The notes under the pieces were generated by a model that was not told the DNA's origin, searched no databases, and saw only the letters and a list, made by a program, of their open reading frames with translations. A stretch of 64,000 bases of DNA. It comes from Escherichia coli (GTDB taxonomy: Bacteria > Pseudomonadota > Gammaproteobacteria > Enterobacterales > Enterobacteriaceae). The stretch lies in NCBI RefSeq assembly GCF_001677475.2, contig NZ_CP015229.1; one strand, 5' to 3'. Position numbers and translations under genes: made by a program. This document shows, piece after piece, positions 348-15,229 of the stretch (position 1 is its first letter; each line of letters opens with the position of its first letter).

Positions 348-1778
348 ATGGCTGGGAATGTTCAGGAAAAACAGCTGCGATGGTACAACATTGCGCTGAT
401 GTCTTTTATCACTGTCTGGGGTTTTGGCAACGTTGTTAATAACTACGCCAACCAGGGGCTGGTGGTTGTTTTTTCATGGGTGTTTATCTTTGCGCTCTAT
501 TTCACACCTTATGCGCTAATTGTTGGCCAGTTAGGCTCGACCTTCAAAGATGGGAAGGGCGGGGTCAGTACCTGGATTAAACACACGATGGGACCCGGAC
601 TGGCTTACCTCGCCGCGTGGACCTACTGGGTAGTGCATATTCCCTATCTGGCACAAAAACCCCAGGCAATACTGATTGCGCTCGGTTGGGCGATGAAAGG
701 CGACGGTTCGCTAATCAAAGAATATTCAGTCGTAGCGTTACAGGGGTTAACGCTGGTGCTGTTTATCTTCTTTATGTGGGTTGCTTCACGCGGTATGAAA
801 TCGCTGAAAATCGTCGGTTCTGTGGCAGGGATTGCGATGTTTGTTATGTCGCTCCTGTATGTGGCGATGGCGGTAACCGCGCCTGCGATTACTGAAGTGC
901 ATATTGCGACCACAAACATTACCTGGGAAACGTTCATTCCTCATATCGACTTTACCTACATTACCACTATTTCAATGCTGGTTTTCGCGGTTGGCGGAGC
1001 AGAGAAGATTTCTCCTTACGTTAATCAAACGCGCAACCCAGGAAAAGAATTTCCAAAAGGGATGTTATGCCTGGCGGTGATGGTTGCGGTTTGTGCCATT
1101 CTGGGCTCACTGGCGATGGGGATGATGTTTGACTCGCGTAATATCCCGGATGACTTAATGACTAACGGTCAGTATTACGCCTTTCAGAAGCTGGGCGAGT
1201 ATTACAACATGGGTAATACTTTAATGGTGATTTATGCCATTGCGAATACCCTGGGACAAGTAGCTGCGCTGGTATTCTCGATTGATGCACCGCTTAAAGT
1301 GTTATTAGGCGATGCCGACAGCAAATATATTCCAGCAAGTTTATGTCGTACCAACGCTTCTGGTACGCCCGTTAATGGCTATTTTCTGACCCTGGTGCTG
1401 GTGGCGATCCTGATAATGCTACCGACTCTCGGCATTGGTGATATGAACAATCTCTATAAATGGCTGTTGAATCTTAACTCGGTAGTGATGCCGCTGCGTT
1501 ATTTGTGGGTATTTGTTGCGTTTATTGCTGTCGTTCGCCTGGCGCAGAAATATAAACCAGAGTATGTCTTTATTCGTAATAAGCCGATGGCAATGACCGT
1601 CGGGATATGGTGTTTTGCCTTTACCGCTTTTGCATGCCTGACAGGAATTTTCCCTAAAATGGAAGCCTTCATTGCAGAGTGGACATTCCAATTGGCACTG
1701 AACATTACTACGCCATTTGTCCTCGTTGGACTGGGGCTGATATTCCCGCTGCTTGCACGTAAAACGAATACAAAATAG
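348..1778 (+). CDS. ycaM: APC-family amino acid transporter YcaM (476 aa)
   Basis: ORF-track 156..1778; ATG at 348 preceded by AAGGA (336-340); multi-pass membrane protein starting MAGNVQEKQLRWYN. Confidence 0.9.
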   Translation: MAGNVQEKQLRWYNIALMSFITVWGFGNVVNNYANQGLVVVFSWVFIFALYFTPYALIVGQLGSTFKDGKGGVSTWIKHTMGPGLAYLAAWTYWVVHIPYLAQKPQAILIALGWAMKGDGSLIKEYSVVALQGLTLVLFIFFMWVASRGMKSLKIVGSVAGIAMFVMSLLYVAMAVTAPAITEVHIATTNITWETFIPHIDFTYITTISMLVFAVGGAEKISPYVNQTRNPGKEFPKGMLCLAVMVAVCAILGSLAMGMMFDSRNIPDDLMTNGQYYAFQKLGEYYNMGNTLMVIYAIANTLGQVAALVFSIDAPLKVLLGDADSKYIPASLCRTNASGTPVNGYFLTLVLVAILIMLPTLGIGDMNNLYKWLLNLNSVVMPLRYLWVFVAFIAVVRLAQKYKPEYVFIRNKPMAMTVGIWCFAFTAFACLTGIFPKMEAFIAEWTFQLALNITTPFVLVGLGLIFPLLARKTNTK

Positions 1779-1786
1779 TCATCATG

Positions 1787-1802
1787 CCCCGGTTCGCCGG
1801 GG
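1787..1802 (+). terminator. GC hairpin just after the ycaM stop (CCCCGG-TTCG-CCGGGG)
   Basis: Perfect 6-bp inverted repeat with a 4-nt loop read directly from the sequence; no strong T-run follows, so it may be only a stabilising hairpin. Confidence 0.35.
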
Positions 1803-2875
1803 CTGTGATATCAAATAGACTAAAATTAGATCAGGCCTGATAAGGCAAAAGTTAAGTTTTTCTTAAGAGATGAAAGAAAATCAACGCTACCGTGATAATA
1901 CGAATTTTAGTTATCGGAGACCATTATTTTTAGATATGGTGATAGTTTTAATTATTGGTTATTTTGCAAGTTATTATTTTGGGCTCTGGAGTAAACTCTT
2001 GCGCATAGTAATAACATGATTTTTACGGCTAAATTTTCAACAAAGATTGGTAATGTAAACTCGTATTTTTTGATTTGCATCAATGAATTCGCACGTTGCT
2101 AATTATGGTTAAATTTGCTGAGAATGATTGCGGTTATTGTTTGGATATGCAGATGGTATATTGATTCACTGGCGTAATATTCTGTAAAAATTATATTTTA
2201 TAGTGTTTTAATCTGGCAAAAATCATCTCCCGACAGAATCTTCTCATGCCTGGTGTAGTTCACAGTCTTTTGTTTTAAAAATAAAATAGTGCTCTAATGT
2301 TGCATCTATTGTTTTATCGAGCGTGTGTTCCTGAAAATATTTATCTGTTAGGTTGATGGACAAATTACAGCCTGGGCAGTGAAATTTTCACGATCACTTT
2401 CTGACTAAATCTTACTTTAAGGTTACTGATTAATATATTTGGGCTAAGAGAGTCGTATTACACATGTCTCAAAAAAGATAAATAAACAGAAAGGATTACT
2501 CACAATAGATACTAATAACACTTTTGGATAGTTATAGAGTAGAAGCCACGACTCAGCAGGATGTAGTAGCTGTGTTGTTATAAGTTAATTTTTTCATGGC
2601 TAAATTATTTCGTTGAAAAATTAACGAAAGGCGGTAGCGTGGGTGAAAGATACAAAATGAGTGTTACATATAACAATATTACCTTGGTTAAAATAGAATG
2701 AATGATAATCACCTGTGGAAATTAAGAAAAAAGTAATCTTCTCATCATGATATATTTTTTATATGGAATAGTGAAATTAATAAAATCATAAAGAGGAGAG
2801 CAACATCGTCTAATATACAGAACGTTATACGATATGATATGAAGCTATTAATAACATTTTAGTCAGAATACCAGT
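1803..2875 (+). promoter_or_regulatory. About 1.1 kb AT-rich ORF-free leader upstream of the five-gene module; presumed promoter and silencing region
   Basis: No ORF of 60 aa or more on either strand; very AT-rich with A/T tracts; directly upstream of a co-directional gene array. Promoter positions not resolved. Confidence 0.3.
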
Positions 2876-5224
2876 ATGTATAGCATTACCGAAAAATTAA
2901 ACTCAAGATTTAACACTGCGGTTATATTAGCTGTTACTGTCTATATTGTCTTGTCATTTATTACCGCAATTGATTTCCATAAAAAAATAGCAGAAAACTC
3001 TGCACAGATTAACCTTATACTCATCAATAACAATTTGAATAATTTTTTTTCTAAAGTTGAAAAAGAGGCTGATGCATTAAAAGATGCAATCTATCTGTTA
3101 CATGATGAAGATGAAATAAAGCGAGCAGTCCTTCATCGCATGAAAAAAATAGACGCGGTTAATTTAGTAGGGATAATGCTCAATAATGGAAAATATCTTA
3201 GCTTTATTCGAACTGAGAATGGGGAGGTAAAATTTCTGGGGCAATCAGAACCCGGTAAACCTTTTATTGGTGACGATGGTGATATCAGCGATAACTACTT
3301 TAATCCGGAATCACGCCCATGGAATAAATTACCGAGGGGGACTTATTCAAAATGGTCACCATGGTATAATTGTTATGGTATTGCCGGAAAAAAATGTTTT
3401 TCGTTTTCACTACGACCATCCGAAGAAGAAAAAAATTCATTTGCTTTGAAGTTAATACATCTGGATGTTGATGAAAAATATTTCAGTAATTTTTTAAATA
3501 AACTGGGTGGTGATTCTGATATTTTATTCATGGAACAAAACAAAAGGATTATGGTGGGTAATGAAAAATCAATGTTACATCTTATTGTCCGTGATTTATC
3601 GGGAAGTTATAACATAAGCAATAATAGTGGCAACTATACAGACAATGTTATCTCACTCCCCTGGCTTCCTGATGTCAGATTCCATTATTTCCACTATCAA
3701 AAATCAGAAGATACAAACATCAATAAATATTTTACACTGATGTTTTTATGTGGCTTGGTTTGTTTCTGTTTATTATGGTATATCGTTGAAAAAATAACAA
3801 GAAAAATCAAAGGTGAATCCAGCAAACTGATAGAACATCTGAAAAAATTAGCTAATTCAGTATATCGCAACGACACAATTGATATTGTGCAAAATGACAG
3901 TGGTGAGATTGTTGAACTCAAAAAGATCATTAATAATATCAGCGATAAATACAAGGAGCGTATGGACCGATTACTTAATCTTGTGTCCTATGAACAAGGA
4001 AGTTGCTTTTATATTAATAAGGCTATTATTGAAACTAATAATAAAACCTATTTGGCAATTGGTATGCTTTGCATCTATGGATTAGAGTTTGTTGAAGCGG
4101 TATATGGAAATCAGAAATTTCATGAGATTTTTAATGATATAAAATCTAAGATATCACAAAAATATTCAAAATATTGTGATATCGTAAAAATCTCAACTGA
4201 AACATACTTGTTGCTATGTCACACTGATTGCGAAGAGTTCATCGAAAAATTATCGGTTTTAAACTTTCCTGAACATATATTTTGCATAAGAAATATATAT
4301 ATCCACAAGATTGCCATTTGCGAAAATTTTTCAGGGGAAAATGTATCGATTTATGAAAGGAAACTGAAACTGGCATTAACAGCTATGCGGGAAAATAAAG
4401 AATCTGAATTTATTTTTTATGATGACATCAAAGTCCATGAACTTGATCAAAAGGTCTGGGTGGCAGGAAATATAAAAAAAGCGATTGCGAGTAATGAGCT
4501 TTATTTAGTATATCAACCGATTGTTGATATGGATAATAATAGGGTTGTAGGCGCAGAGGCGTTATGTCGCTGGTTGTCCTGCGAAAATGGGGTAATACCG
4601 CCATCAATTTTTGTACCTGTTGCTGAAGAAATAGGATTAATTAAAGAACTGGGTGATTTTGTTCTCGAAACAGCTATTAGCGAATTTGGGGTGTTTAGTT
4701 GTGAATATGAGGTTGCTAACGATTTTCTCCTGCATATCAATGTTTCTCCCTGGCAATTAAATGAATTTGACTTCCACACTCGTGTTCTTACTTTAATTAA
4801 TGCATTTGGTGTAAATGTTGAACAAATCTGCCTGGAGATCACCGAATCAGCAGTAAAAGATATAAATGATAGCTTTTACAATAATATAAATATTTTAAAA
4901 GAAAATGGTATCAAGATTTCCCTTGATGATTTCGGAAGTGGATTAGCTGACCTGAAAAAACTTTATAAAGTAAGACCTGATAGCATTAAAATTGATTCAG
5001 AGTTTACCTCTGGTATTTTCGATGAAACTAACAAGGTTGTATATTTTATATCCAATCTTGCTCGTGAAGAAAATATGCCGGTAATAGCTGAAGGTGTTGA
5101 AACTGAAAGTCAGGCTAGAGAGTTGCAAAAATTAGGATTTTCTCATGTTCAGGGATACTTATACCAGAAACCGTTACCGTTTTCAGAATGGCATATAGAC
5201 AACAAACCGAAAAAAAGAAAATAA
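2876..5224 (+). CDS. Membrane-anchored c-di-GMP phosphodiesterase: TM, periplasmic domain, TM, degenerate GGDEF-like linker, EAL domain (782 aa)
   Basis: EAL-domain signatures present: GAEALCRW, LEITES, DDFGSG, IKIDSEF, EGVETESQ, QGY. Two hydrophobic segments flank a ~250 aa region. No GGDEF/GGEEF motif in the linker. Confidence 0.8.
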   Translation: MYSITEKLNSRFNTAVILAVTVYIVLSFITAIDFHKKIAENSAQINLILINNNLNNFFSKVEKEADALKDAIYLLHDEDEIKRAVLHRMKKIDAVNLVGIMLNNGKYLSFIRTENGEVKFLGQSEPGKPFIGDDGDISDNYFNPESRPWNKLPRGTYSKWSPWYNCYGIAGKKCFSFSLRPSEEEKNSFALKLIHLDVDEKYFSNFLNKLGGDSDILFMEQNKRIMVGNEKSMLHLIVRDLSGSYNISNNSGNYTDNVISLPWLPDVRFHYFHYQKSEDTNINKYFTLMFLCGLVCFCLLWYIVEKITRKIKGESSKLIEHLKKLANSVYRNDTIDIVQNDSGEIVELKKIINNISDKYKERMDRLLNLVSYEQGSCFYINKAIIETNNKTYLAIGMLCIYGLEFVEAVYGNQKFHEIFNDIKSKISQKYSKYCDIVKISTETYLLLCHTDCEEFIEKLSVLNFPEHIFCIRNIYIHKIAICENFSGENVSIYERKLKLALTAMRENKESEFIFYDDIKVHELDQKVWVAGNIKKAIASNELYLVYQPIVDMDNNRVVGAEALCRWLSCENGVIPPSIFVPVAEEIGLIKELGDFVLETAISEFGVFSCEYEVANDFLLHINVSPWQLNEFDFHTRVLTLINAFGVNVEQICLEITESAVKDINDSFYNNINILKENGIKISLDDFGSGLADLKKLYKVRPDSIKIDSEFTSGIFDETNKVVYFISNLAREENMPVIAEGVETESQARELQKLGFSHVQGYLYQKPLPFSEWHIDNKPKKRK

Positions 5225-5228
5225 AGCA

Positions 5229-6569
5229 ATGTTCAAATATAAAAAAAAGGCGGCAGTGATCTGTTTTTTGTATTTTTTGTGCGTCGCTGTAGTAACTTGT
5301 TATTTGTACACCATTCATGTTAAAGGCCGTATAAATTCGGTGAAGGTATCTATTGTAGATAGTGGGCTTGCAATAGCTAATGTTTCTGAGTATCGCCGCT
5401 CAGTATCTAATAATATATTTTATGAACTTGAGGTTTCGCCAGAAGAGTTGTTAAAAAAAATACGCAATAGCTTTGCTGGCTATGAAAACCCTGGATATTT
5501 GTATGATCTCGGTCCTTATATGATTAGCGATGGTAAATGTATCAAAGTCACAACGAAAGGAGATAATTTTTGTGACGACATAGTTTCCTCTATTAGGGTA
5601 ATTAATGAATTTGAAAGAGGCATTATTAGCTTAAAAAATAAGTGCTATGTTTATTATGCTCATCCCATTGCAAAACGTACAAGTTTGATATCAGTGGTAG
5701 ATCCTGAACGTTATTTATCTTTGATAAGAAATCAATCAGGGGAACGAGAAGATATCTATGTATCATTTTATGATATTAATGATAATGAAAAGAAAATCGC
5801 AGGTGATGATTTTTTGATAAATGATGCAGTATTTGAGATGTCAGCTATCACTCTGTCGTATTCTTATCTTCCAGAAATGATGTTTATTGTTGCCTATAAA
5901 AAAAGTAAATATCTATATATATGTGCGTTTTTCGTTTTTGCATCGGCAATATCTGCAGTCATAATGTATGTTTATTATGTTAAATTATTGCGTGATATTA
6001 TAAATAAGGGTAGATTGGAAAAAGAATCTATATTGTCGAATCATCAATATGATTTACGTGGAGAAAATCTATTCTTTAATACGGAAGAGATTAATGCAAT
6101 TCGAGAGATATATGACTTTGGCACTTGTGATGCATTAACCAGGGCTTCTGGTCGCCGGAGTTTTGATAAAGAAATCAAGATACTGAGAAAAAATTTTGGC
6201 TACCTGTGTCTATTTGATGTGGATAAATTTAAAACCATTAATGATAAGTTTGGTCATTTATTTGGTGATGAAGTACTCATCAAACTTGTTAATATCATTA
6301 AAGAAGAGTTACCCCGTCGTGAAGGGGAAATATACCGGTTTGGCGGTGATGAGTTTGCTATTATTTATTATGAGAAAGATAAAAATAAGCTATCAAGAAT
6401 TTTGCACAGAGTTGTTCATTTCGCCATTGGTGGGTTAAATTGTAGTTGCAGTATAGGTGTTGCCAGCACAGATGAGTGCATGAATAACATTGAACGGTTG
6501 AAATTGCTGGCAGATGAACGGTTATATAAAAGTAAGCAAAATGGCCGAGCACAGATAACGTGGTGTTGA
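5229..6569 (+). CDS. Membrane diguanylate cyclase: TM, periplasmic domain, TM, GGDEF domain (446 aa)
   Basis: Intact GGDEF motifs: DALT, FDVDKFKTINDKFGH, GDEVL, RFGGDEF. Position -9 to -6 before GGDEF reads RREG rather than RxxD, so the inhibitory I-site looks degenerate. Four bp after the preceding gene. Confidence 0.85.
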   Translation: MFKYKKKAAVICFLYFLCVAVVTCYLYTIHVKGRINSVKVSIVDSGLAIANVSEYRRSVSNNIFYELEVSPEELLKKIRNSFAGYENPGYLYDLGPYMISDGKCIKVTTKGDNFCDDIVSSIRVINEFERGIISLKNKCYVYYAHPIAKRTSLISVVDPERYLSLIRNQSGEREDIYVSFYDINDNEKKIAGDDFLINDAVFEMSAITLSYSYLPEMMFIVAYKKSKYLYICAFFVFASAISAVIMYVYYVKLLRDIINKGRLEKESILSNHQYDLRGENLFFNTEEINAIREIYDFGTCDALTRASGRRSFDKEIKILRKNFGYLCLFDVDKFKTINDKFGHLFGDEVLIKLVNIIKEELPRREGEIYRFGGDEFAIIYYEKDKNKLSRILHRVVHFAIGGLNCSCSIGVASTDECMNNIERLKLLADERLYKSKQNGRAQITWC

Positions 6570-6653
6570 TATTTTAATTTGCATGGCATTGGTCATCGAT
6601 GTTTACAAAAATCACACAGTTCAAGTTATATTATTAATGAATCGTTAAGTGCA

Positions 6654-8768
6654 ATGCTCATAAAAAATAAAGTAATATTAAACAAAATCCTTTTGGTTGT
6701 TGCTATACTGCTATGTTTTGTTTTTTTATCAATTGTTGAACAGCCCCTTGGATTTTATCAACAAACATTATTTTCAATTATTATTTGTATCGCTGCTATC
6801 TTCCTTAATTTTCTCAAAGGAAGGATAATTACTCTGATTCTAATGGGTGTTGGAATACTCATATCATCCCGATATCTATGGTGGCGTTACTCTTCTTCAG
6901 TAATCCTGGATGAATTTCCAGACTGTTTATTTTCAGTCACGCTATTAGTTGCTGAGACGTATGCATGGTTTGTTTTATTACTTGGTTACTTTCAGGTTTG
7001 CTTCCCGCTGAACCGAGAAAGTATACCCTTACCAGAGAATAAAGAAGAATGGCCCGTTGTTGATATATTAATCCCCACATATAACGAACCCTTTACAGTC
7101 GTTAAGAATACAGTTTATGGTGCGTTGGCCTTAGACTGGCCAACGGATAAATTAAATATCTGGCTCCTTGATGATGGCGCCAGGGACGAGTTCAGGAAAT
7201 TCGCGAACGAGTTAGGTATTTACTATGTCGCAAGAGAAACACATGAACATGCTAAGGCCGGAAATATAAATAATGCGCTTAAAATAGCTAATGGCGAATT
7301 TGTTGCTATTTTCGATTGCGATCATATACCCTCGGTTTCTTTTTTAAAGAAAACGATGGGCTGGTTTATCGCCGATAAAAAATTATCGATGTTGCAAACA
7401 CCACATCATTTTTTTTCCCCCGACCCTTTTGAGCGAAATTTGGGGCAGTTTCGGCAAAAGCCAAATGAAGGACACCTTTTTTATGGGTTAATCCAGAATG
7501 GTACGGATACATGGAATGCTTCATTTTTTTGTGGTTCATGTGCAATCATCCGTAGATCTGCTCTGGATGAGGTTGGAGGCATTGCAGTCGAAACAGTAAC
7601 AGAAGATGCGCATACGTCGTTACGCTTGCATCGTGCAGGTTATAGCTCTGCGTATCTTCGCTATCCTCTGGCTGCCGGGCTAGCCACCGAAACATTGTCT
7701 GCTCATATTGGACAACGGATTCGGTGGGCTCGAGGCATGATTCAAATCTTGCGTATTGACAATCCATTATTGGGCAAGGGGCTGACATTATCACAGCGCC
7801 TTTGCTATCTCAGCAGCATGATGCATTTTTTATCAGGTGTGCCACGCCTGATTTTCTTGTTCGCACCGTTATGTCCTATTTTCTTTTCGGTCAATCTGAT
7901 CGATGCATCAGTTGCAGATATTATGTCTTATGTTTTACCTTATCTATTTGTTATTATTTTAACTAATTCAAGAGTACAAGGTAAATACAGACATTCATTC
8001 TGGAATGAGATTTATGAAATGGTTCTGGCCTGGTATATTACGCTACCAACGCTTGTAGCTTTACTTGCGCCAGCAAAAGGTCGTTTTAACGTTACGGCCA
8101 AAGGGGGACTGATAAAAAATAAGTTTGTTGACTGGCGAATTTCCTATCCCTATCTTATTTTTGCTATTTTAAATGTAATCGGGCTGATAATAGGTGTTAT
8201 TAATGTTTATAGTTTGCAAGGGCATATTGCCATCTTGAATTTGTTTTGTTTAATCTGGTTGTTTTATAACGCAATTATTATTGGCGCAACTTTGGCTGTT
8301 TCTATTGAACAAAAGCAGGTGCGTTTTTCTCCCCGTATTGATGTTTCTTTCAAGGGCGTTATACAACTGGATGATGGACGGCGCTATCCTTGTTCTGTTC
8401 TTGATTTTTCCGAAGGAGGATTAGGTGTAATCCTTGATAATATCTCCGACGTAAAAGATATGCTTAAAGCACAGCAATTGTCTCTTTATCTGGATGATAG
8501 CAACGGGAAATGTGATATTCCGGTAGAAATAGTTCATGCTTACAATAATAAAATTGGTCTGAAGATTATGCCAATGAGTTATGAACAAAGTGTTAATTAT
8601 GTAAGAGCAACGTTTTCTCGTGATTCATTATGGCAAGAGTGGAATAATAAAATTAGACGGGACAATATTCTAAAGAGTTTTTTTGAAATATGTTTCATCT
8701 CTCTGAAAGGTTATTGCAATATGGTTTTTTATATTCTGCGGACACTGAAAAGCAGTTCCAAAAGTTAG
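6654..8768 (+). CDS. BcsA-family processive beta-glycosyltransferase with C-terminal PilZ domain (cellulose-synthase-like catalytic subunit)
   Basis: N-terminal TM helices; GT2 motifs DILIPTYNEP, LLDDGARDEF, FDCDH, TEDAHTS, FFCGSCAIIRR, QRIRWARG; PilZ motifs RFSPR and DFSEGGLG. ORF-track frame opens at a TTG at 6579; ATG at 6654 chosen as start, uncertain. Confidence 0.82.
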   Translation: MLIKNKVILNKILLVVAILLCFVFLSIVEQPLGFYQQTLFSIIICIAAIFLNFLKGRIITLILMGVGILISSRYLWWRYSSSVILDEFPDCLFSVTLLVAETYAWFVLLLGYFQVCFPLNRESIPLPENKEEWPVVDILIPTYNEPFTVVKNTVYGALALDWPTDKLNIWLLDDGARDEFRKFANELGIYYVARETHEHAKAGNINNALKIANGEFVAIFDCDHIPSVSFLKKTMGWFIADKKLSMLQTPHHFFSPDPFERNLGQFRQKPNEGHLFYGLIQNGTDTWNASFFCGSCAIIRRSALDEVGGIAVETVTEDAHTSLRLHRAGYSSAYLRYPLAAGLATETLSAHIGQRIRWARGMIQILRIDNPLLGKGLTLSQRLCYLSSMMHFLSGVPRLIFLFAPLCPIFFSVNLIDASVADIMSYVLPYLFVIILTNSRVQGKYRHSFWNEIYEMVLAWYITLPTLVALLAPAKGRFNVTAKGGLIKNKFVDWRISYPYLIFAILNVIGLIIGVINVYSLQGHIAILNLFCLIWLFYNAIIIGATLAVSIEQKQVRFSPRIDVSFKGVIQLDDGRRYPCSVLDFSEGGLGVILDNISDVKDMLKAQQLSLYLDDSNGKCDIPVEIVHAYNNKIGLKIMPMSYEQSVNYVRATFSRDSLWQEWNNKIRRDNILKSFFEICFISLKGYCNMVFYILRTLKSSSKS

Positions 8769-8833
8769 TTCTAATTTCTGACTGCTAATTAAATATATTG
8801 TTTGTGTTTATTATGGTTGTTGAATTTTTTAAA

Positions 8834-11134
8834 ATGGAAAGAAAATTTTTGAGATTAAGTGCTGCGATAATTGGCTTGGGGTTATTATGTTTTTACCAGG
8901 CAAATACAGCATCGGCTACAGATACAGTAACCAGTAAGTCTTCCTCTGGAGAAGTATTACCATCTATCCAGAAGACAAATATCTCTGCTTATGAGAAAGA
9001 GTCGTCTCGCCATTTTAAACTCCCATTTACACAAATCGCACCAGCTCCAGGAAACATAGTCCTGAATGGCGTTAACCCACAGGGGCAAATTGAGTTTGGT
9101 ATGCGTAGCGATGAAATAGTATCAGAAGCAAAACTAAAACTTGAATACACTACATCACCGTCGCTGATCCCTGTCCAGTCACAGCTTAAGGTCTATCTTA
9201 ATGACGAGTTGATGGGGGTATTGCCGATTACCAAAGAACAACTGGGGAAGAAAACGCTGGCGGAAATAACTCTTAACCCATTGTATTTTTCTGATTTTAA
9301 TCGCTTGCGCCTCGAATTAATTAGTCACTACCAGAGCGCCTGTGAAAACCCGACCAGCAGCAATTTGTGGCTTGATATTGGACGTACCAGTGAACTTGAA
9401 CTGGTATTTCAGAGACTTAATCTGAAAAATGATCTTTCATATTTTCCTGTACCGTTTTTTGACCCGCGAGATAACCGCACTAATACATTGCCGATGGTTT
9501 TTGCAGGTACTCCTGAGACTGGTTTGCAGCAGGCATCAGCTATTGTCGCTTCGTGGTTTGGTGCGCAATCTGGCTGGCGTGGTCACCGATTTCCGGTTTT
9601 CTATAACCAGTTACCGGAAAGTAATGCAGTGGTCTTTGCCACTAACAATAGACGCCCGGACTTTCTGCGCGAGCATCCGTTGGTGAATGCGCCTGTTATT
9701 AAAATGATCAGTCATCCACAAAATCCTTTTATCAAATTGCTGGTACTTTTGGGCCGCGATGACAAAGATTTATTACAGGCGGCAAAAGGCCTTGCACAGG
9801 GAAATATACTTTTTCGCGGCGATAGTGTGATCGTAAATGAAGTGACGCCGTTACTGCCGCGTAAACCTTATGATGCGCCAAACTGGGTACGCACTGACCG
9901 TCCTGTAACTTTCGCAGAGCTTAAAAATTATGAAGGGCAGTTACAGGCAAGTGGCCTGGAGTCTGCGGCAATTAATGTTTCATTTAATTTGCCACCTGAT
10001 CTTTTTCTATTGCGTAATCGTGGGGTTGATATGAAGATTAACTATCGCTATACCACGCCAACGATAGGTGGTTCACGCATGGATGTCAGCCTTAATAACC
10101 AGTACCTTGAATCTTTCCGGCTAAGTCCGCAATCTGCTACCGATAGATTGTTGTTACGTTTACCGTTATTGCAAGAATTGTTGGATGGTAATAATGGAAT
10201 TACCATTCCTGCGCTGACGTTGGGGGCGCTTAATCAATTGCGATTTAATTTTGAGTACATTAATACAATGCCGCGTTCTGATGCTGATAGCTGTATTATT
10301 TCCAGGCCTCTAAAAAATCATGCGGTTATTGCAGATGATTCCACTATCGATTTTTCAAAGTACCATCACTTTATCGCAATGCCAGATTTACGCGCTTTTG
10401 CCAGCTCAGGCTTTCCATTTAGCCGCATGGCCGATCTATCAGAAACGGTTGTGGTTATGCCTGAAAATCCTGGTACAACGCAAGTTGAAACATTATTAAA
10501 TACCCTTGGACTGATTGGTGCTCAAACTGGATTTCCGGCAATTAATCTGACAATTACTGATGATATAGGTTCTGTCCAGGGTAAGGATTCAGATATTCTG
10601 CTTATAGGAACACTTCCGCAAGAATTTGCAGATAAACAGCAAATTAATCTGCTCATTGAGGCAACAACGAGTTGGGTAAAAAGCCCAATGCGGAACACTG
10701 ATTACGCAAAAATTATGGCAGATAAAAACGATCAAAAACCTGAAATACAAACAACTATAAATTCCCCATTGCCAATGGCGGCGATAGTTGGTTTTCAGTC
10801 CCCATATCATGCCCAACGTAGCGTAATTGCTTTAATGTCCGAGGGATCACGCGGCGATACGCTACTCAACAATGCGTTAATTAATAGTACAAAACGCGGC
10901 AATATTTTTGGTTCAGTCGCGGTTATTCGCGAATCTGGCGTCAATAGTTTACAGGTTGGAGATACTTATTACGTTGGGCATCTCCCCTGGATTGAACGAG
11001 TGCAATATGTGTTAGCCAGACACCCCATTCTACTGGCAGTCCTGGCAACTCTCAGTGTGGTGCTATTGGCGTGGGTAGTATGGCGTCTGTTACGTAACAT
11101 TAGTCGCCGTCGTCTGAACCCTCATCAACAGTAA
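8834..11134 (+). CDS. BcsB-like periplasmic subunit with signal peptide and C-terminal membrane anchor
   Basis: ORF-track 8798..11134 opens at a TTG; ATG at 8834 gives a classical signal peptide (MERKFLRLSAAIIGLGLLCFYQANTASA). About 770 aa with a C-terminal hydrophobic helix followed by RRRLNP, the typical BcsB size and topology. Confidence 0.8.
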   Translation: MERKFLRLSAAIIGLGLLCFYQANTASATDTVTSKSSSGEVLPSIQKTNISAYEKESSRHFKLPFTQIAPAPGNIVLNGVNPQGQIEFGMRSDEIVSEAKLKLEYTTSPSLIPVQSQLKVYLNDELMGVLPITKEQLGKKTLAEITLNPLYFSDFNRLRLELISHYQSACENPTSSNLWLDIGRTSELELVFQRLNLKNDLSYFPVPFFDPRDNRTNTLPMVFAGTPETGLQQASAIVASWFGAQSGWRGHRFPVFYNQLPESNAVVFATNNRRPDFLREHPLVNAPVIKMISHPQNPFIKLLVLLGRDDKDLLQAAKGLAQGNILFRGDSVIVNEVTPLLPRKPYDAPNWVRTDRPVTFAELKNYEGQLQASGLESAAINVSFNLPPDLFLLRNRGVDMKINYRYTTPTIGGSRMDVSLNNQYLESFRLSPQSATDRLLLRLPLLQELLDGNNGITIPALTLGALNQLRFNFEYINTMPRSDADSCIISRPLKNHAVIADDSTIDFSKYHHFIAMPDLRAFASSGFPFSRMADLSETVVVMPENPGTTQVETLLNTLGLIGAQTGFPAINLTITDDIGSVQGKDSDILLIGTLPQEFADKQQINLLIEATTSWVKSPMRNTDYAKIMADKNDQKPEIQTTINSPLPMAAIVGFQSPYHAQRSVIALMSEGSRGDTLLNNALINSTKRGNIFGSVAVIRESGVNSLQVGDTYYVGHLPWIERVQYVLARHPILLAVLATLSVVLLAWVVWRLLRNISRRRLNPHQQ

Positions 11135-11246
11135 TTCATCATCATTTCTATTTTGCGGCTCCATTCTGTCCTGACTTTATACAGGCAGGGAGCTGCGCCC
11201 GTTCTGTTTTTAATAAAAAGTGAGTTAACACCTGATTGAGGCAGGC

Positions 11247-14200
11247 ATGTACAAATTCACCCTAAATTTACTCACAATATCCCTTGGTTTGGCGGTAATG
11301 TCGATGGCGAAAGCCACACCAACTGTACACAAGCTGTTAATGGCGCAGATTCGGTTAGGCGAAGACATTCATCGTGAAGATCTGGTCGAACAGTCGCTTT
11401 ATCGTCTTGAATTGGCGGAACCTGATAATCCAGATGTCGTTGCGGCGCGTTTTCGCTATCTGCTGCGTAAGGGGGATATTGAAGGTGCGCAAAAACAACT
11501 TGCCAGACTTTCCCTGTTCGCTCCTGATTCAAAAATATATAAAGCATCGCGCACGGCCATGCGACTTTCTTCGCCTGAGGGGCGTCAGGCACTGCAAATG
11601 GCACGCTTACAAGCTATCTCCGGGCGACATAAAGAGGCTATCGACAGTTACGACAAGCTATTTAACGGGGCACCGCCAGATATCGAAATGGCGCTGGAAT
11701 ACTGGGGGGCAATGACGCAAATTTCCTCCCGTCGCAACGAAGCGATTCGTCAGTTGAAAATACTTAATATTGATAATCCTGACTCTGGTGCCATATTTGG
11801 GGCGCTGGGGCAGGCGTATTCCCAGAATGGCGATCGCGCTAATGCGGTGGCGAATCTGGAAAAAGCCCTCGCACTGGATCCGCACAGCAGCAACAACGAC
11901 AAATGGAACAGTCTGCTGAAGGTGAATCGCTACTGGCTGGCGATCCAGCAGGGCGATGCTGCGCTGAAAGCCAATAATCCTGACCGCGCAGAGCGTCTGT
12001 TCCAGCAGGCGCGCAATGTCGATAACGCCGACAGCTATGCGGTGCTGGGGCTGGGCGATGTGGCGATGGCGCGCAAAGATTACCCCGCCGCCGAACGTTA
12101 TTATCAGCAGACGCTGCGTATGGACAGCGGCAACACCAACGCCGTGCGCGGGCTGGCGAATCTTTATCGCCAGCAGTCGCCGGAAAAAGCCGAAGCGTTT
12201 ATTGCCTCGCTCTCTGCCAGCCAGCGGCGCAGCGTTGATGACATCGAACGCAGCCTGCAAAACACGCGTTTATCACAGCAGGCAGAGGCACTGGAAAATC
12301 AGGGTAAATGGGCGCAGGCGGCAGCACTTCAGCGCCAGCGACTGGCGCTCGATCCCGGCAGTGTGTGGATTACTTACCGGCTTTCGCAGGATCTCTGGCA
12401 GGCCGGACAACGCAGCCAGGCCGATACGTTAATGCGCCATCTGGCGCAGCAGAAGCCGAACGACCCGGAGCAGGTTTACGCTTACGGGCTGTATCTCTCT
12501 GGTCATGACCAGGACAGAGCGGCGCTGGCGCATATCAACAGCCTGCCGCGCGCGCAATGGAACAGCAATATTCAGGAGCTGGTTAATCGACTGCAAAGCG
12601 ATCAGGTGCTGGAAACCGCTAATCGCCTGCGAGAAAGCGGCAAAGAAGCTGAAGCGGAAGCGATGCTGCGCCAACAACCACCTTCCACGCGTATTGATCT
12701 CACGCTGGCTGACTGGGCGCAACAACGACGTGATTATACCGCCGCCCGCGCTGCATATCAGAATGTCCTGATGCGGGAGCCAACTAACGCCGATGCCATT
12801 CTTGGTCTGACGGAAGTGGATATTGCTGCCGGTGACAAAGCGGCAGCACGTAGCCAGCTGGCGAAACTGCCTGCCACCGATAACGCGTCGCTGAACACTC
12901 AGCGGCGCGTGGCGCTGGCACAGGCGCAGCTTGGCGATACCGCAGCGGCGCAGCAGACGTTTAATAAGTTGATCCCGCAGGCAAAATCTCAGCCGCCGTC
13001 GATGGAAAGCGCGATGGTGCTGCGCGACGGTGCGAAGTTTGAAGCGCAGGCGGGCGATCCAAAGCAGGCGCTGGAAACCTACAAAGACGCCATGGTCGCA
13101 TCCGGTGTGACTACGACGCGTCCGCAGGATAACGACACCTTTACCCGACTGACCCGTAACGATGAGAAAGATGACTGGCTGAAGCGCGGTGTGCGCAGCG
13201 ACGCGGCAGATCTCTATCGTCAGCAGGATCTTAACGTCACCCTTGAGCACGACTACTGGGGATCGAGTGGCACCGGTGGTTACTCCGACCTGAAAGCGCA
13301 CACTACCATGTTGCAGGTGGATGCTCCGTATTCTGACGGGAGGATGTTCTTTCGCAGTGATTTCGTCAATATGAACGTCGGCAGTTTCTCCACTAATGCC
13401 GATGGCAAATGGGATGACAACTGGGGCACCTGTACATTACAGGACTGTAGTGGCAACCGCAGCCAGTCGGACTCCGGTGCCAGCGTGGCGGTCGGCTGGC
13501 GAAATGACGTCTGGAGCTGGGATATCGGTACCACGCCGATGGGCTTCAACGTGGTGGATGTGGTCGGCGGCATCAGTTACAGCGATGATATCGGGCCGCT
13601 GGGTTACACCGTTAACGCCCACCGTCGGCCCATCTCCAGTTCTTTGCTGGCCTTTGGTGGGCAAAAAGACTCTCCGGGCAATACCGGGAAAAAATGGGGT
13701 GGCGTGCGTGCCGACGGCGTGGGGCTAAGCCTGAGCTACGATAAAGGTGAAGCAAACGGCGTCTGGGCATCGCTTAGCGGTGACCAGTTAACCGGTAAAA
13801 ATGTCGAAGATAACTGGCGCGTGCGCTGGATGACGGGCTATTACTATAAGGTCATTAACCAGAACAATCGCCGCGTCACAATCGGCCTGAACAACATGAT
13901 CTGGCATTACGACAAAGATCTGAGTGGCTACTCACTCGGTCAGGGCGGTTACTACAGTCCGCAGGAATACCTGTCGTTTGCCATACCGGTGATGTGGCGG
14001 GAGCGCACGGAAAACTGGTCGTGGGAGCTGGGTGCATCTGGCTCGTGGTCGCATTCGCGCACCAAAACCATGCCGCGTTATCCGCTGATGAACCTGATCC
14101 CGACGGACTGGAAAGAGGATGCCGCCAGCCAGACCAACGACGGCGGCAGCAGTCAGGGCTTTGGCTACACGGCGCGGGCGTTACTTGAGCGTCGCGTCAC

Positions 14201-14354
14201 GTCCAACTGGTTTGTCGGCACGGCGATTGATATCCAGCAGGCGAAAGATTATGCGCCAAGCCATTTCCTGCTCTACGTGCGGTATTCCGCCGCCGGATGG
14301 CAGGGCGACATGGATTTACCGCCGCAGCCGCTGATACCTTACGCCGACTGGTAA
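11247..14354 (+). CDS. BcsC-like export component: signal peptide, TPR repeats, C-terminal outer-membrane beta-barrel (1035 aa)
   Basis: Signal peptide MYKFTLNLLTISLGLAVMSMAKA; TPR-like repeats; Gly/Tyr/Trp-rich C-terminal region ending in aromatic residues; GAGG before the ATG. GC and codon usage change abruptly near 11.8 kb. Confidence 0.8.
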   Translation: MYKFTLNLLTISLGLAVMSMAKATPTVHKLLMAQIRLGEDIHREDLVEQSLYRLELAEPDNPDVVAARFRYLLRKGDIEGAQKQLARLSLFAPDSKIYKASRTAMRLSSPEGRQALQMARLQAISGRHKEAIDSYDKLFNGAPPDIEMALEYWGAMTQISSRRNEAIRQLKILNIDNPDSGAIFGALGQAYSQNGDRANAVANLEKALALDPHSSNNDKWNSLLKVNRYWLAIQQGDAALKANNPDRAERLFQQARNVDNADSYAVLGLGDVAMARKDYPAAERYYQQTLRMDSGNTNAVRGLANLYRQQSPEKAEAFIASLSASQRRSVDDIERSLQNTRLSQQAEALENQGKWAQAAALQRQRLALDPGSVWITYRLSQDLWQAGQRSQADTLMRHLAQQKPNDPEQVYAYGLYLSGHDQDRAALAHINSLPRAQWNSNIQELVNRLQSDQVLETANRLRESGKEAEAEAMLRQQPPSTRIDLTLADWAQQRRDYTAARAAYQNVLMREPTNADAILGLTEVDIAAGDKAAARSQLAKLPATDNASLNTQRRVALAQAQLGDTAAAQQTFNKLIPQAKSQPPSMESAMVLRDGAKFEAQAGDPKQALETYKDAMVASGVTTTRPQDNDTFTRLTRNDEKDDWLKRGVRSDAADLYRQQDLNVTLEHDYWGSSGTGGYSDLKAHTTMLQVDAPYSDGRMFFRSDFVNMNVGSFSTNADGKWDDNWGTCTLQDCSGNRSQSDSGASVAVGWRNDVWSWDIGTTPMGFNVVDVVGGISYSDDIGPLGYTVNAHRRPISSSLLAFGGQKDSPGNTGKKWGGVRADGVGLSLSYDKGEANGVWASLSGDQLTGKNVEDNWRVRWMTGYYYKVINQNNRRVTIGLNNMIWHYDKDLSGYSLGQGGYYSPQEYLSFAIPVMWRERTENWSWELGASGSWSHSRTKTMPRYPLMNLIPTDWKEDAASQTNDGGSSQGFGYTARALLERRVTSNWFVGTAIDIQQAKDYAPSHFLLYVRYSAAGWQGDMDLPPQPLIPYADW

Positions 14355-14395: not shown

Positions 14396-14438
14396 GTAAA
14401 TCAGCGTCGAGCATGTTCTTAACGCTGATTTACTTTTT
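14396..14438. terminator. Hairpin plus T-run between the convergent BcsC-like gene and pflA
   Basis: GTAAATCAGCGT … ACGCTGATTTAC inverted repeat followed by TTTTT, read directly. Confidence 0.5.
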
Positions 14439-14488: not shown

Positions 14489-15229
14489 TTAGAACATCAC
14501 TTTATGACCATATTGCTCAAGAATCCCTTTCACTCGCTCCATGGTTTCTTTTTTCGGTGGTTTCACACCGTCGAGTTTGTACTCTTCGCCCATCGCCACC
14601 CACTTATGTTTGCCTAACTCATGGTAGGGGAGGAGCTCGATTTTTTCGACGTTACCCATATCGCGAGTAAATTCACCGAGGCGATGAGCTGAATCGTCAT
14701 CGTCAGACCAGCCAGGTACTACGACATAACGTATCCAGACTTTCACATTTTTGTTCGCCAGATATTTAGCAAACTCGAGTGTACGATGGTTGGAAACGCC
14801 TACCAGATTCTGGTGGATTTCGTCGTTCATCTGTTTGAGATCGAGCATTACCAGGTCGGTCACTTCCAGAAGTTCATCAATTACTGGATCGTAACGACGA
14901 ACAAAACCGTTAGTGTCCAGACAGGTATGAATGCCTTCTTTTTTGCAGGCGCGGAACCAGTCGCGAACGAACTCGGCTTGCAGGATTGCTTCACCACCGG
15001 ATGCGGTAACGCCGCCGCCGGAAGCGTTCATAAAGTGGCGATAGGTCACCACTTCCTTCATTAAATCTTCAACGGTAACTTCTTTACCGCCATGCGTATC
15101 CCAGGTGTCGCGGTTATGACAATACAGGCAGCGCATCAGGCAGCCCTGGAAAAAGGTGATAAAGCGAATACCCGGGCCGTCTACGGTTCCACAGGATTCA
15201 AAGGAGTGAATGCGACCAATAACTGACAT
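14489..15229 (-). CDS. pflA: Pyruvate formate-lyase activating enzyme (radical SAM)
   Basis: Protein [20 protein letters not shown] … [10 protein letters not shown] … YGHKVMF; ORF-track frame extends 9 codons upstream, start set at the conserved Met. Confidence 0.95.

What the first reader, a model, noticed from the sequence alone, without database searches (positions are those of the whole stretch)
1779..2875. 1.1 kb AT-rich ORF-free leader and absence of any mobility gene
The module is preceded by an unusually long, very AT-rich intergenic region with no ORF of 60 aa or more, and its first genes are far more AT-rich than the flanks. That composition is typical of horizontally acquired DNA bound by nucleoid-associated silencers such as H-NS, so the module may be silent under laboratory conditions. 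No integrase, transposase, tRNA or obvious direct repeat marks the boundaries, which points to homologous recombination via the flanking core genes rather than site-specific integration.
Basis: inference. Interest (0 to 1): 0.5.

Follow-up and report, generated by a model that had tools for sequence, protein, structure and literature searches.

The report
RfaH-type leader of accessory cellulose operon
The 1.1-kb gene-free stretch is the control region of a rare, horizontally acquired second cellulose-synthase operon in E. coli, and it carries a perfect, conserved loading site (ops) for the anti-termination factor RfaH, so the operon probably has a built-in way past H-NS silencing.

Summary
Window 1779-2875 is a 1097-bp, 31.7% GC stretch with no ORF of 60 aa or more, between ycaM and a five-gene module (yliE-like EAL, yliF-like GGDEF, bcsA, bcsB, bcsC). 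No integrase, transposase, tRNA or boundary repeat is present.

The leader is not a passive spacer. The same ~1.1-kb leader accompanies the module in three Escherichia lineages, including E. fergusonii, where the module sits at a different chromosomal site. Against that copy only 42% of aligned positions match, but four collinear islands survive:
- an unexplained block (1889-1981, E. fergusonii island 1937-1953);
- a perfect FNR box (2070-2083) with a variable spacer;
- a sigma-70 promoter, TTCACA-N17-TAAAAT (2259-2287);
- a hairpin abutting an invariant 20-mer that contains the canonical 12-nt ops element GGCGGTAGCGTG (2630-2641) on the non-template strand.

A plasmid EAL gene only 33% identical also has a perfect ops upstream. 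The first gene has no Shine-Dalgarno sequence.

Best reading: an RfaH-dependent, probably H-NS-bound operon leader, possibly oxygen-regulated. Divergence tracts reaching into ycaM and pflA support acquisition by homologous recombination. The module is already described; I found no report of the ops link. It is a new member of a known kind.

The parts
1200..1778 (+). 3' part of ycaM with raised divergence from ordinary E. coli alleles; the left recombination tract
   Evidence: Identity to the empty-site E. coli AR_0077 is 99-100% up to ~1200, then 94, 82, 91 and 81% in successive 150-bp bins.
1786..1803 (+). GC-rich hairpin GCCCCGG-TTCG-CCGGGGC just after the ycaM stop. It has no T-run. It is present only in module-bearing E. 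coli.
   Evidence: Sequence. Conserved in lineages A and B. Absent from the empty site and from E. fergusonii.
1889..1981 (.). Conserved block A, function unknown
   Evidence: Runs of 26 and 42 nt are identical between lineages A and B against a 72% background. A collinear island survives in E. fergusonii, 1937-1953. The overlapping 49-aa ORF is frame-shifted in lineage B.
2070..2083 (.). Perfect FNR consensus box TTGAT-N4-ATCAA
   Evidence: It is the only perfect match in the 64 kb; 0.13 are expected. The half-sites are invariant in all 6 sequences while the spacer varies: TTGC, CTGC, ATAC, TTAT.
2259..2287 (+). Candidate sigma-70 promoter P2: -35 TTCACA (2259-2264), 17-nt spacer, -10 TAAAAT (2282-2287). 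The inferred TSS is near 2294.
   Evidence: It matches 10 of 12 consensus positions. It is the only promoter-like site at the orthologous position in all three lineages. Both hexamers and the spacing are kept in E. fergusonii although the spacer sequence differs.
2608..2629 (+). Hairpin TTTCGTT(GA)-loop-(TT)AACGAAA, ending immediately before ops
   Evidence: The stem is invariant and the loop varies in sequence and length across lineages. It is predicted in all lineages. A hairpin with a different stem (UUCCA/UGGAA) abuts ops in plasmid pTB402.
2630..2641 (+). ops element GGCGGTAGCGTG, the RfaH recruitment and pause site, on the non-template strand of the operon
   Evidence: It matches the canonical ops12 at 12 of 12 positions (PMC5995543). 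It is the only perfect ops in the window. It lies inside a 20-nt block, 2624-2643, that is identical in all lineages; the best HSP in shuffles scores 15. It is present in L001, L002, L004, L005, L008 and plasmid L006.
2791..2799 (+). Shine-Dalgarno-like AAAGAGGAG with no start codon after it; unexplained
   Evidence: Conserved in lineages A and B but not in E. fergusonii.
2876..5224 (+). First gene of the operon: CHASE9-EAL phosphodiesterase (YliE/PdeI-like), with no Shine-Dalgarno sequence
   Evidence: Annotation and Pfam. The anti-SD duplex energy is +0.2 kcal/mol, against -9.2 for pflB.
5229..6569 (+). GAPES2-GGDEF diguanylate cyclase (YliF/DgcI-like)
6579..11134 (+). Accessory cellulose synthase bcsA and bcsB. 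The mechanical ORF starts are probably too far upstream.
11247..14354 (+). Chimeric bcsC: 11247-11798 is module-specific, and 11799-14354 is 95% identical to the core-genome bcsC
14396..14438 (+). Terminator-like hairpin GTAAATCAGCGT...ACGCTGATTTAC followed by TTTTT, after bcsC
   Evidence: Sequence.
14489..14890 (-). 3' part of pflA with raised divergence; the right recombination tract
   Evidence: Identity to ordinary E. coli is 87-90% here and 98-100% beyond 14890.

Best explanation
Window 1779-2875 is the cis-regulatory region and long 5' untranslated leader of a horizontally acquired accessory cellulose/c-di-GMP operon (yliE-like EAL, yliF-like GGDEF, bcsA, bcsB, bcsC).

Proposed mechanism:
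1. Transcription starts at a conserved sigma-70 promoter (TSS near 2294), and perhaps at a second, FNR-linked promoter near 2116.
2. About 340 nt downstream, RNA polymerase reaches the ops element at 2630-2641. There it pauses, possibly helped by the RNA hairpin that ends just upstream, and exposes the non-template strand to RfaH.
3. RfaH-modified polymerase excludes NusG, resists Rho-dependent termination and H-NS/StpA-promoted pausing across the 11.5-kb AT-rich operon, and recruits ribosomes to the first gene, which has no Shine-Dalgarno sequence.

Shown here: the sequence elements, their strand and order, and their conservation.

Inferred: that they are used, that H-NS binds, and that FNR provides oxygen control.

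The module, with its leader, was installed between ycaM and pflA by homologous recombination of flanking core DNA, not by a site-specific element.
For: (1) The leader belongs to the module. An ~1.1-kb leader (1097, 1098 and 1085 bp) precedes the EAL gene in lineage A (window, N3, E69, L005), in lineage B (MS 21-1) and in E. fergusonii. In E. fergusonii the module lies between rutR and yedF, not between ycaM and pflA.

(2) Phylogenetic footprints. Aligned identity to E. fergusonii is only 42%. The four best ungapped matches are nevertheless collinear within ~20 nt of one diagonal. The 20-nt match scores far above every shuffle, 20 against a maximum of 15.

(3) The 20-mer contains GGCGGTAGCGTG. 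This equals the canonical ops12 (PMC5995543). It lies on the operon's sense (non-template) strand, outside any conserved ORF, 235 nt before the ATG.

(4) Independent recurrence. A perfect ops lies 106 nt upstream of a plasmid-borne YliE-like EAL gene that is only 33% identical in protein. The core K-12-type pdeI leader has none.

(5) The context matches every known RfaH target: a long, AT-rich, horizontally acquired operon for an extracellular polymer. In CFT073 all 8 leader-located non-template ops sites bound RfaH, and all 8 operons were H-NS/StpA-bound (PMC9765446).

(6) The first gene lacks a Shine-Dalgarno sequence in all lineages. This is a stated property of RfaH targets (PMC5995543).

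(7) A promoter upstream of ops keeps both hexamers and the spacing in all lineages.

(8) The FNR box has invariant half-sites and a variable spacer, and it is the only perfect box in 64 kb.

(9) Recombination tracts reach into ycaM and pflA.
Against: - There are no transcript, ChIP or mutant data for any strain that carries the module. The TSS, RfaH loading, H-NS occupancy and FNR binding are all inferred.
- The full 39-bp JUMPstart element seen at waaQ is not present.
- ops lies ~340 nt from the inferred TSS, so a long untranslated RNA is exposed to Rho before RfaH can load. hly gives a precedent.
- The hairpin stem never varies within the chromosomal lineages, so there is no covariation support. 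Its folding z-scores are weak in two of the four contexts.
- The FNR box is ~217 bp upstream of the conserved promoter's TSS, too far for standard activation. A 4-nt deletion in lineage B changes its spacing to the nearest -10-like hexamer.
- Only three independent lineages exist, so statistical power is limited.
Confidence: 0.72

Rival explanations
1. The leader is a passive spacer of xenogeneic AT-rich DNA. H-NS coats and silences the module, and the conserved islands have no function of their own.
For: GC is 31.7% over 1.1 kb and continues for ~6 kb. The count of promoter-like sites is no higher than in shuffles. Most of the leader is essentially randomised between E. coli and E. fergusonii.
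Against: In randomised DNA, a 20-nt identical block holding a 12/12 ops, a perfect FNR palindrome with a variable spacer, and a promoter with both hexamers kept would not all survive collinearly. ops recurs upstream of a homologue only 33% identical. The composition-based chance of this 12-mer on one strand of 1.1 kb is about 3e-6 (own calculation from the composition).
Confidence: 0.1
2. The leader encodes an unannotated product, either a small hydrophobic protein (49 aa at 1870-2019 on the + strand, or 35 aa at 2605-2712 on the - strand) or a small RNA. That product would explain the conserved blocks.
For: Both small ORFs overlap conserved blocks and encode hydrophobic peptides. Block A (1889-1981) has no other explanation. 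At waaQ in K-12, a small RNA (rirA) is annotated within the leader.
Against: The 49-aa frame is broken by a 1-nt deletion in lineage B and absent in E. fergusonii. The 35-aa minus-strand ORF has no counterpart of 20 aa or more in that frame in E. fergusonii. The plus-strand frame across ops is shifted in N3. Conservation is at the nucleotide level, wobble positions included. No Rfam family matches at E of 10 or less at orthologous positions. No intrinsic terminator lies inside the leader.
Confidence: 0.1
3. The leader is a decayed remnant of a gene or of a mobile element that once delivered the module.
For: Length is conserved at ~1.1 kb without coding capacity. Related EAL/GGDEF/bcs genes on plasmids are surrounded by IS1, IS110 and IS481 copies.
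Against: The leader has no nucleotide similarity to anything else in 5426 E. coli genomes or 72,556 plasmids. There are no terminal or direct repeats. Each frame has 23-32 stops. The empty sites show no scars.
Confidence: 0.05

Closest known systems
ops-bearing leaders of RfaH-dependent operons in E. coli (waaQ/rfaQ, rfb/wzx, kps, hlyCABD, wza)
   Same: The 12-nt ops is identical to the canonical sequence and sits on the non-template strand in an untranslated leader. The operon is long, AT-rich and horizontally acquired, and encodes an extracellular or envelope product. The first gene lacks a Shine-Dalgarno sequence. A hairpin-capable segment ends 0-2 nt before ops, as at waaQ (CAGG...CCTG). 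The ops-to-ATG distance of 235 nt lies between the 40-67 nt of wzx/kps/rfa and the ~600 nt of hly.
   Different: The cargo is a cellulose synthase with its own c-di-GMP cyclase and phosphodiesterase, which is not among the reported regulon members. There is no full JUMPstart homology. The distance from the inferred promoter to ops is ~340 nt. A perfect FNR box lies upstream. RfaH dependence has not been tested.
Accessory (BcsA2/BcsA3) cellulose clusters of Escherichia (bioRxiv 10.1101/2025.05.09.653004)
   Same: The gene set is the same: yliE-like EAL, yliF-like GGDEF, then bcsABC on the chromosome, restricted to Escherichia. The window's BcsA is 73-74% identical to the plasmid-borne class, so it is probably the chromosomal BcsA3 class.
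   Different: The preprint does not discuss the upstream region, promoters, RfaH, FNR or H-NS. I did not check the class assignment against its reference proteins.
Core-genome pdeI-dgcI (yliE-yliF) of E. coli K-12
   Same: A homologous gene pair in the same order, and its first gene also lacks a Shine-Dalgarno sequence.
   Different: The upstream region is only 177 bp, has no ops (best matches carry 2 mismatches and lie inside genes) and is not followed by bcs genes.
FNR-regulated promoters (consensus TTGAT-N4-ATCAA; own knowledge)
   Same: A perfect 10/10 palindrome with conserved half-sites.
   Different: No mapped TSS exists. The box is ~217 bp from the conserved promoter's TSS. Its spacing to the nearest -10-like hexamer fits class II (-39.5 to -41.5) in lineage A and E. 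fergusonii, but not in lineage B.

Membership tests
RfaH-dependent operon (ops leader) | 12-nt ops consensus GGCGGTAGnnTG | tested here: met
   GGCGGTAGCGTG at 2630-2641 matches 12/12 and is the only perfect match in the window. It is identical to ops12 in PMC5995543. It is present in all lineages.
RfaH-dependent operon (ops leader) | ops on the non-template strand, in an untranslated 5' leader and not inside a translated gene | tested here: met
   It is on the + strand, the same as the operon, 235 nt upstream of the ATG. No ORF across it is conserved.
RfaH-dependent operon (ops leader) | A promoter upstream, so that ops is transcribed | tested here: inconclusive
   TTCACA-N16/17-TAAAAT is conserved in all 6 sequences, ~340 nt upstream. 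No TSS data exist.
RfaH-dependent operon (ops leader) | A long, AT-rich, horizontally acquired operon for an envelope or extracellular component | tested here: met
   The operon is 11.5 kb, with GC of 32-43% over its first 8 kb against 49% for the window. It is in 9 of 5426 E. coli genomes and carries cellulose synthase genes.
RfaH-dependent operon (ops leader) | First gene lacks a Shine-Dalgarno sequence | tested here: met
   The anti-SD duplex energy is +0.2 to +0.4 kcal/mol in all four families, against -9.2 for pflB.
RfaH-dependent operon (ops leader) | RfaH occupancy downstream of ops and rfaH-dependent distal expression | not testable with these tools
   This needs ChIP-seq or a delta-rfaH mutant in a module-bearing strain.
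JUMPstart element (39 bp) | A conserved 5' half (GGTAGCTGT...) about 12 nt upstream of ops | tested here: not met
   waaQ reads CAGGTAGCTGTTGAGCCTGGGGCGGTAGCGTG. Here only GTAGCTGT occurs, ~55 nt upstream, and it is not conserved in N3, lineage B or E. fergusonii.
FNR-dependent promoter | TTGAT-N4-ATCAA site | tested here: met
   2070-2083 is a perfect match; 0.13 are expected per 64 kb. The half-sites are invariant in 6 sequences.
FNR-dependent promoter | Site centred at about -41.5 or -61.5 from a mapped TSS, with oxygen-dependent expression | not testable with these tools
   Only -10-like hexamers can be proposed. The spacing differs in lineage B.
H-NS-silenced xenogeneic DNA | An AT-rich tract relative to the host | tested here: met
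H-NS-silenced xenogeneic DNA | H-NS occupancy, or derepression in an hns mutant | not testable with these tools
   Matches to the high-affinity motif TCGATAAATT with 2 mismatches or fewer: 7 against 3.7 +/- 1.9 in shuffles. This is only suggestive.
Integrative mobile element or IS remnant | Integrase or transposase, tRNA target, flanking direct or inverted repeats | tested here: not met
Known structured RNA (Rfam, including c-di-GMP riboswitches) | Covariance-model match | tested here: not met
   Nothing near gathering score, and nothing shared between the window and E. fergusonii leaders.

The most novel reading that the evidence does not exclude
ops plus the abutting hairpin may act as a portable expression signal that lets very AT-rich c-di-GMP/cellulose modules, chromosomal and plasmid-borne, be read through H-NS filaments in any Escherichia host. 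In this operon it would be combined with FNR control, so that a second cellulose pathway with its own private c-di-GMP circuit is made specifically under anaerobic (gut) conditions. That would add biofilm-matrix and second-messenger genes to the RfaH regulon and link RfaH to oxygen sensing.
Probability: 0.3. Interest if true: 0.65.

Novelty: new member of a known kind. Interest (0 to 1): 0.5.

Why it matters
RfaH is known to control only a handful of operons: 2 in K-12 and 8 in UPEC CFT073 (PMC9765446). All encode envelope, capsule, toxin, pilus or T6SS-related functions. A cellulose synthase operon with its own diguanylate cyclase and phosphodiesterase would be a new functional class in that regulon.

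It would also explain how an 11.5-kb operon at 32-43% GC over its first 8 kb can be expressed in a 50% GC host. It gives the groups now describing these accessory bcs clusters a concrete, testable regulatory model: rfaH, hns/stpA, fnr and oxygen.

For genome scanning, the practical lesson is that a long AT-rich 'empty' leader upstream of a foreign operon should be searched for ops before it is called silent.

Tried and rejected
- Rfam at permissive thresholds on the window leader and the E. fergusonii leader gave only sub-threshold, non-orthologous hits.
- tRNA search found nothing.
- Repeat search found only short AT-rich chance matches and no boundary repeats.
- Small-ORF conservation: the 49-aa (+), 35-aa (-) and ops-spanning (+) frames are not kept across lineages.
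- RNAalifold on the hairpin/ops region: the stem is invariant, so there is no covariation.
- Scanning 100,044 species genomes for the 20-mer gave one hit (E69, lineage A), so no extra diversity.
- Searches for the leader in E. coli genomes and plasmids found only the 9 module-bearing chromosomes.
- Plasmid bcsA clusters have upstream regions disrupted by IS1 and carry no ops.
- The pTB402-type leader occurs in 7 plasmids, all 99% identical or more.
- From memory I compared the conserved blocks with sigma-54, CRP, Fur, IHF, CsgD, NarL, PmrA and SlyA consensus sequences and with several sRNA seeds. None fitted in all lineages, so none is claimed.
- The strong minus-strand promoter-like site at 2219-2190 is not conserved and was dismissed.

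Full report
**What is there**

The window begins in an ordinary E. coli chromosome. The ycaM permease gene ends at 1778. A five-gene + strand module runs from 2876 to 14354: a CHASE9-EAL protein, a GAPES2-GGDEF protein, bcsA, bcsB and bcsC. It is followed by pflA and pflB on the minus strand.

The 1097 bp between them (1779-2875) has 31.7% GC and no ORF of 60 aa or more; the longest is 49 aa. Each frame has 23-32 stop codons. Low GC continues through the first three genes, and nothing else in the 64 kb is comparably AT-rich. Shuffles of the leader lack an ORF of 60 aa or more 55% of the time, so being ORF-free is simply what non-coding DNA of this composition looks like. What is unusual is the length of the non-coding stretch.

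No tRNA, integrase, transposase or boundary repeat is present.

**What the module is**

It is one of the accessory cellulose clusters of Escherichia recently described by the Romling laboratory (bioRxiv 10.1101/2025.05.09.653004). In these clusters yliE-like EAL and yliF-like GGDEF genes sit next to bcsABC, and the family is restricted to the genus.

- It occurs between ycaM and pflA in 9 of 5426 complete E. coli genomes.
- The EAL protein family has only four 90% clusters, all from Escherichia.
- I distinguish three lineages. A is the window, N3, E69 and a Logan contig. B is MS 21-1 and six others, with a leader 72% identical. C is E. fergusonii, with an EAL protein 68% identical.
- That preprint does not discuss the upstream region, promoters, RfaH, FNR or H-NS.

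**How it got there**

The window's flanks are 99-100% identical to ordinary E. coli. Identity falls to 82-94% over the last ~600 bp of ycaM and to 87-90% over the last ~400 bp of pflA. Strains without the module have ycaM next to pflA, separated only by a pseudogene fragment, and the junctions fall at the two stop codons with no scar.

The leader matches nothing else in E. coli genomes or plasmids, so it is not an IS or phage remnant.

**The leader belongs to the module**

In E. fergusonii the module (without bcsC) lies at a different locus, between rutR and yedF. It is again preceded by 1085 bp of 31.5% GC non-coding DNA.

Aligned identity between the E. coli and E. fergusonii leaders is only 42%, close to random for this composition. 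The four best ungapped matches are nevertheless collinear within about 20 nt of one diagonal. All three sequence-defined motifs are present in all six sequences, with similar spacing.

**The conserved islands**

1. Block A, 1889-1981. It is 100% identical between A and B over runs of 26 and 42 nt, and about 60% is kept in C. It has no conserved ORF and no Rfam match, and remains unexplained.
2. TTGAT-N4-ATCAA at 2070-2083. This is a perfect FNR consensus and the only one in the 64 kb, where 0.13 are expected. The half-sites are invariant while the four spacer bases vary: TTGC, CTGC, ATAC, TTAT.
3. TTCACA-N16/17-TAAAAT at 2259-2287. It is the only promoter-like site found at the orthologous place in all three lineages. 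The hexamers and spacing are kept in E. fergusonii although the spacer sequence differs.
4. A hairpin (TTTCGTT...AACGAAA, 2608-2629) followed directly by a 20-nt block, 2624-2643, that is identical in every sequence. The best score in 100 shuffles was 15, against 20 observed.

**The key identification**

The invariant block contains GGCGGTAGCGTG (2630-2641). [quoted passage not shown] 2018 (PMC5995543). It lies on the + strand, which is the non-template strand for the operon. It sits in untranslated sequence 235 nt before the start codon, and it is the only perfect ops in the window.

From the leader's composition, the chance of this 12-mer on one strand of 1.1 kb is about 3e-6 (my calculation).

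It is present in all lineages. A perfect ops also lies 106 nt upstream of a plasmid-borne YliE-like EAL gene (pTB402) whose protein is only 33% identical. The core K-12-type pdeI has a 177-bp upstream region without ops.

**Why this matters mechanistically**

According to PMC5995543, all RfaH-controlled operons carry ops in their leaders. RfaH binds the ops hairpin in the non-template strand of the paused complex. It then suppresses pausing and Rho-dependent termination, and recruits 30S subunits to leaders that lack Shine-Dalgarno elements.

According to Hustmyer et al. 2022 (PMC9765446), all eight leader-located non-template ops sites in UPEC CFT073 bound RfaH. All eight operons were covered by H-NS/StpA filaments, and four were cryptic until hns and stpA were deleted. 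The regulon encodes envelope and extracellular functions. The ops-to-start distance ranged from 40-67 nt to ~600 nt.

The present operon fits each sequence-level criterion:
- it is long (11.5 kb), AT-rich and horizontally acquired, and its product is extracellular;
- ops is in the leader on the correct strand, with a conserved promoter upstream;
- the first gene has no Shine-Dalgarno complementarity in any lineage (+0.2 kcal/mol, against -9.2 for pflB).

An RNA hairpin whose 3' end abuts ops G1 is predicted in all four contexts, with a different stem sequence in pTB402. waaQ in K-12 has a comparable CAGG...CCTG segment just before ops. This geometry is suggestive only. There is no covariation within the chromosomal lineages, and two of the four folds are no better than shuffles. 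The full 39-bp JUMPstart is not present.

**Best explanation and limits**

The leader is the regulatory region and long 5' UTR of an RfaH-dependent, probably H-NS-bound operon. I put this at 0.72.

The FNR box suggests oxygen control, but its mode of action is unclear. It lies ~217 bp upstream of the conserved promoter's TSS. It could drive its own class II promoter (-10 TATGGT at 2104-2109) in lineages A and C. A 4-nt deletion in lineage B instead creates TTGATA-18-GATAAT, overlapping the box.

Nothing here has been tested experimentally. The TSS, RfaH loading, H-NS occupancy and FNR binding are all inferences.

**Rivals**

- A passive silenced spacer is contradicted by the collinear footprints and the recurrence of ops.
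- A small protein or sRNA is not supported. The frames are broken between lineages, Rfam finds nothing, and no internal terminator is predicted. Block A remains unexplained and a novel RNA cannot be excluded.
- A decayed gene or mobile-element remnant has no support.

**Novelty**

The module is known, and ops/RfaH biology is known. I found no paper connecting them. Searches for RfaH with cellulose and bcsA, or with c-di-GMP and EAL, returned only incidental co-mentions, although the library covers only open-access papers and bioRxiv. This would therefore be a new member of the RfaH regulon, with a new kind of cargo. It is of moderate interest and is directly testable.

Noticed in passing
window 11247-14354: The module's bcsC is a chimera. 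11799-14354 (58.6% GC) is 95.3-95.8% identical to the core-genome bcsC, which matches in 5422 of 5426 complete E. coli genomes. The first 552 nt are module-specific. The product is 1035 aa. This suggests recombination or gene conversion between the accessory and core bcs loci.
   Followed up: partly
L004 10001-18080 (E. fergusonii GCA_020168615.1): The E. fergusonii version of the module has no bcsC. It lies between rutR and yedF-yedE-yedD-amyA, genes that by my recollection are about 1 Mb apart in K-12, so the module sits at or near a rearrangement junction.
   Followed up: no
window 1200-1778 and 14489-14890: Divergence from ordinary E. coli alleles rises inside ycaM and pflA next to the module, while DNA further out is 99-100% identical. 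These are the recombination tracts that came with the module.
   Followed up: yes
window 1889-1981: This non-coding block is perfectly conserved between lineages A and B and partly kept in E. fergusonii. Its function is unknown. A sub-threshold Rfam CRISPR-DR62 hit (31 bits against a 45-bit threshold) falls inside it and is probably chance.
   Followed up: partly
window 2791-2799: A strong Shine-Dalgarno-like AAAGAGGAG is conserved in lineages A and B with no start codon within reach. It is absent in E. fergusonii.
   Followed up: no
window 1786-1803: A 7-bp GC hairpin with a TTCG loop follows the ycaM stop directly and has no T-run. It is found only in module-bearing E. coli, not at empty sites.
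   Followed up: no
L006 6937-6975 (plasmid pTB402): TTCGTTGAAAACACG lies about 20 nt downstream of the plasmid ops. It resembles the hairpin sequence found immediately upstream of ops in the chromosomal leaders, so the two may share ancestry with a rearrangement.
   Followed up: no
L007 7040-7190 (Salmonella Saintpaul plasmid): About 21 tandem copies of the heptamer CGACCAG lie just upstream of a YliE-like EAL gene, inside a small annotated minus-strand ORF. This may be a slipped-strand switch.
   Followed up: no
L006 7042-9387: The plasmid EAL protein carries a run of SIN/INS tripeptide repeats in its N-terminal sensor region.
   Followed up: no
L010 and L011 (plasmid bcs clusters): The plasmid bcsA-bcsB-bcsC clusters (BcsA 73-74% identical to the window's) are cut up by IS1 copies. 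In L010 a group II intron (ltrA) is annotated between bcsB and bcsC. The EAL gene and its leader are missing from both.
   Followed up: partly
window 2190-2219, minus strand: This is the best sigma-70 consensus match in the leader (TTGCCA-18-TATAAT, 11 of 12). It points away from the operon and is not conserved in other lineages. It is probably one of the spurious promoters typical of AT-rich DNA.
   Followed up: yes
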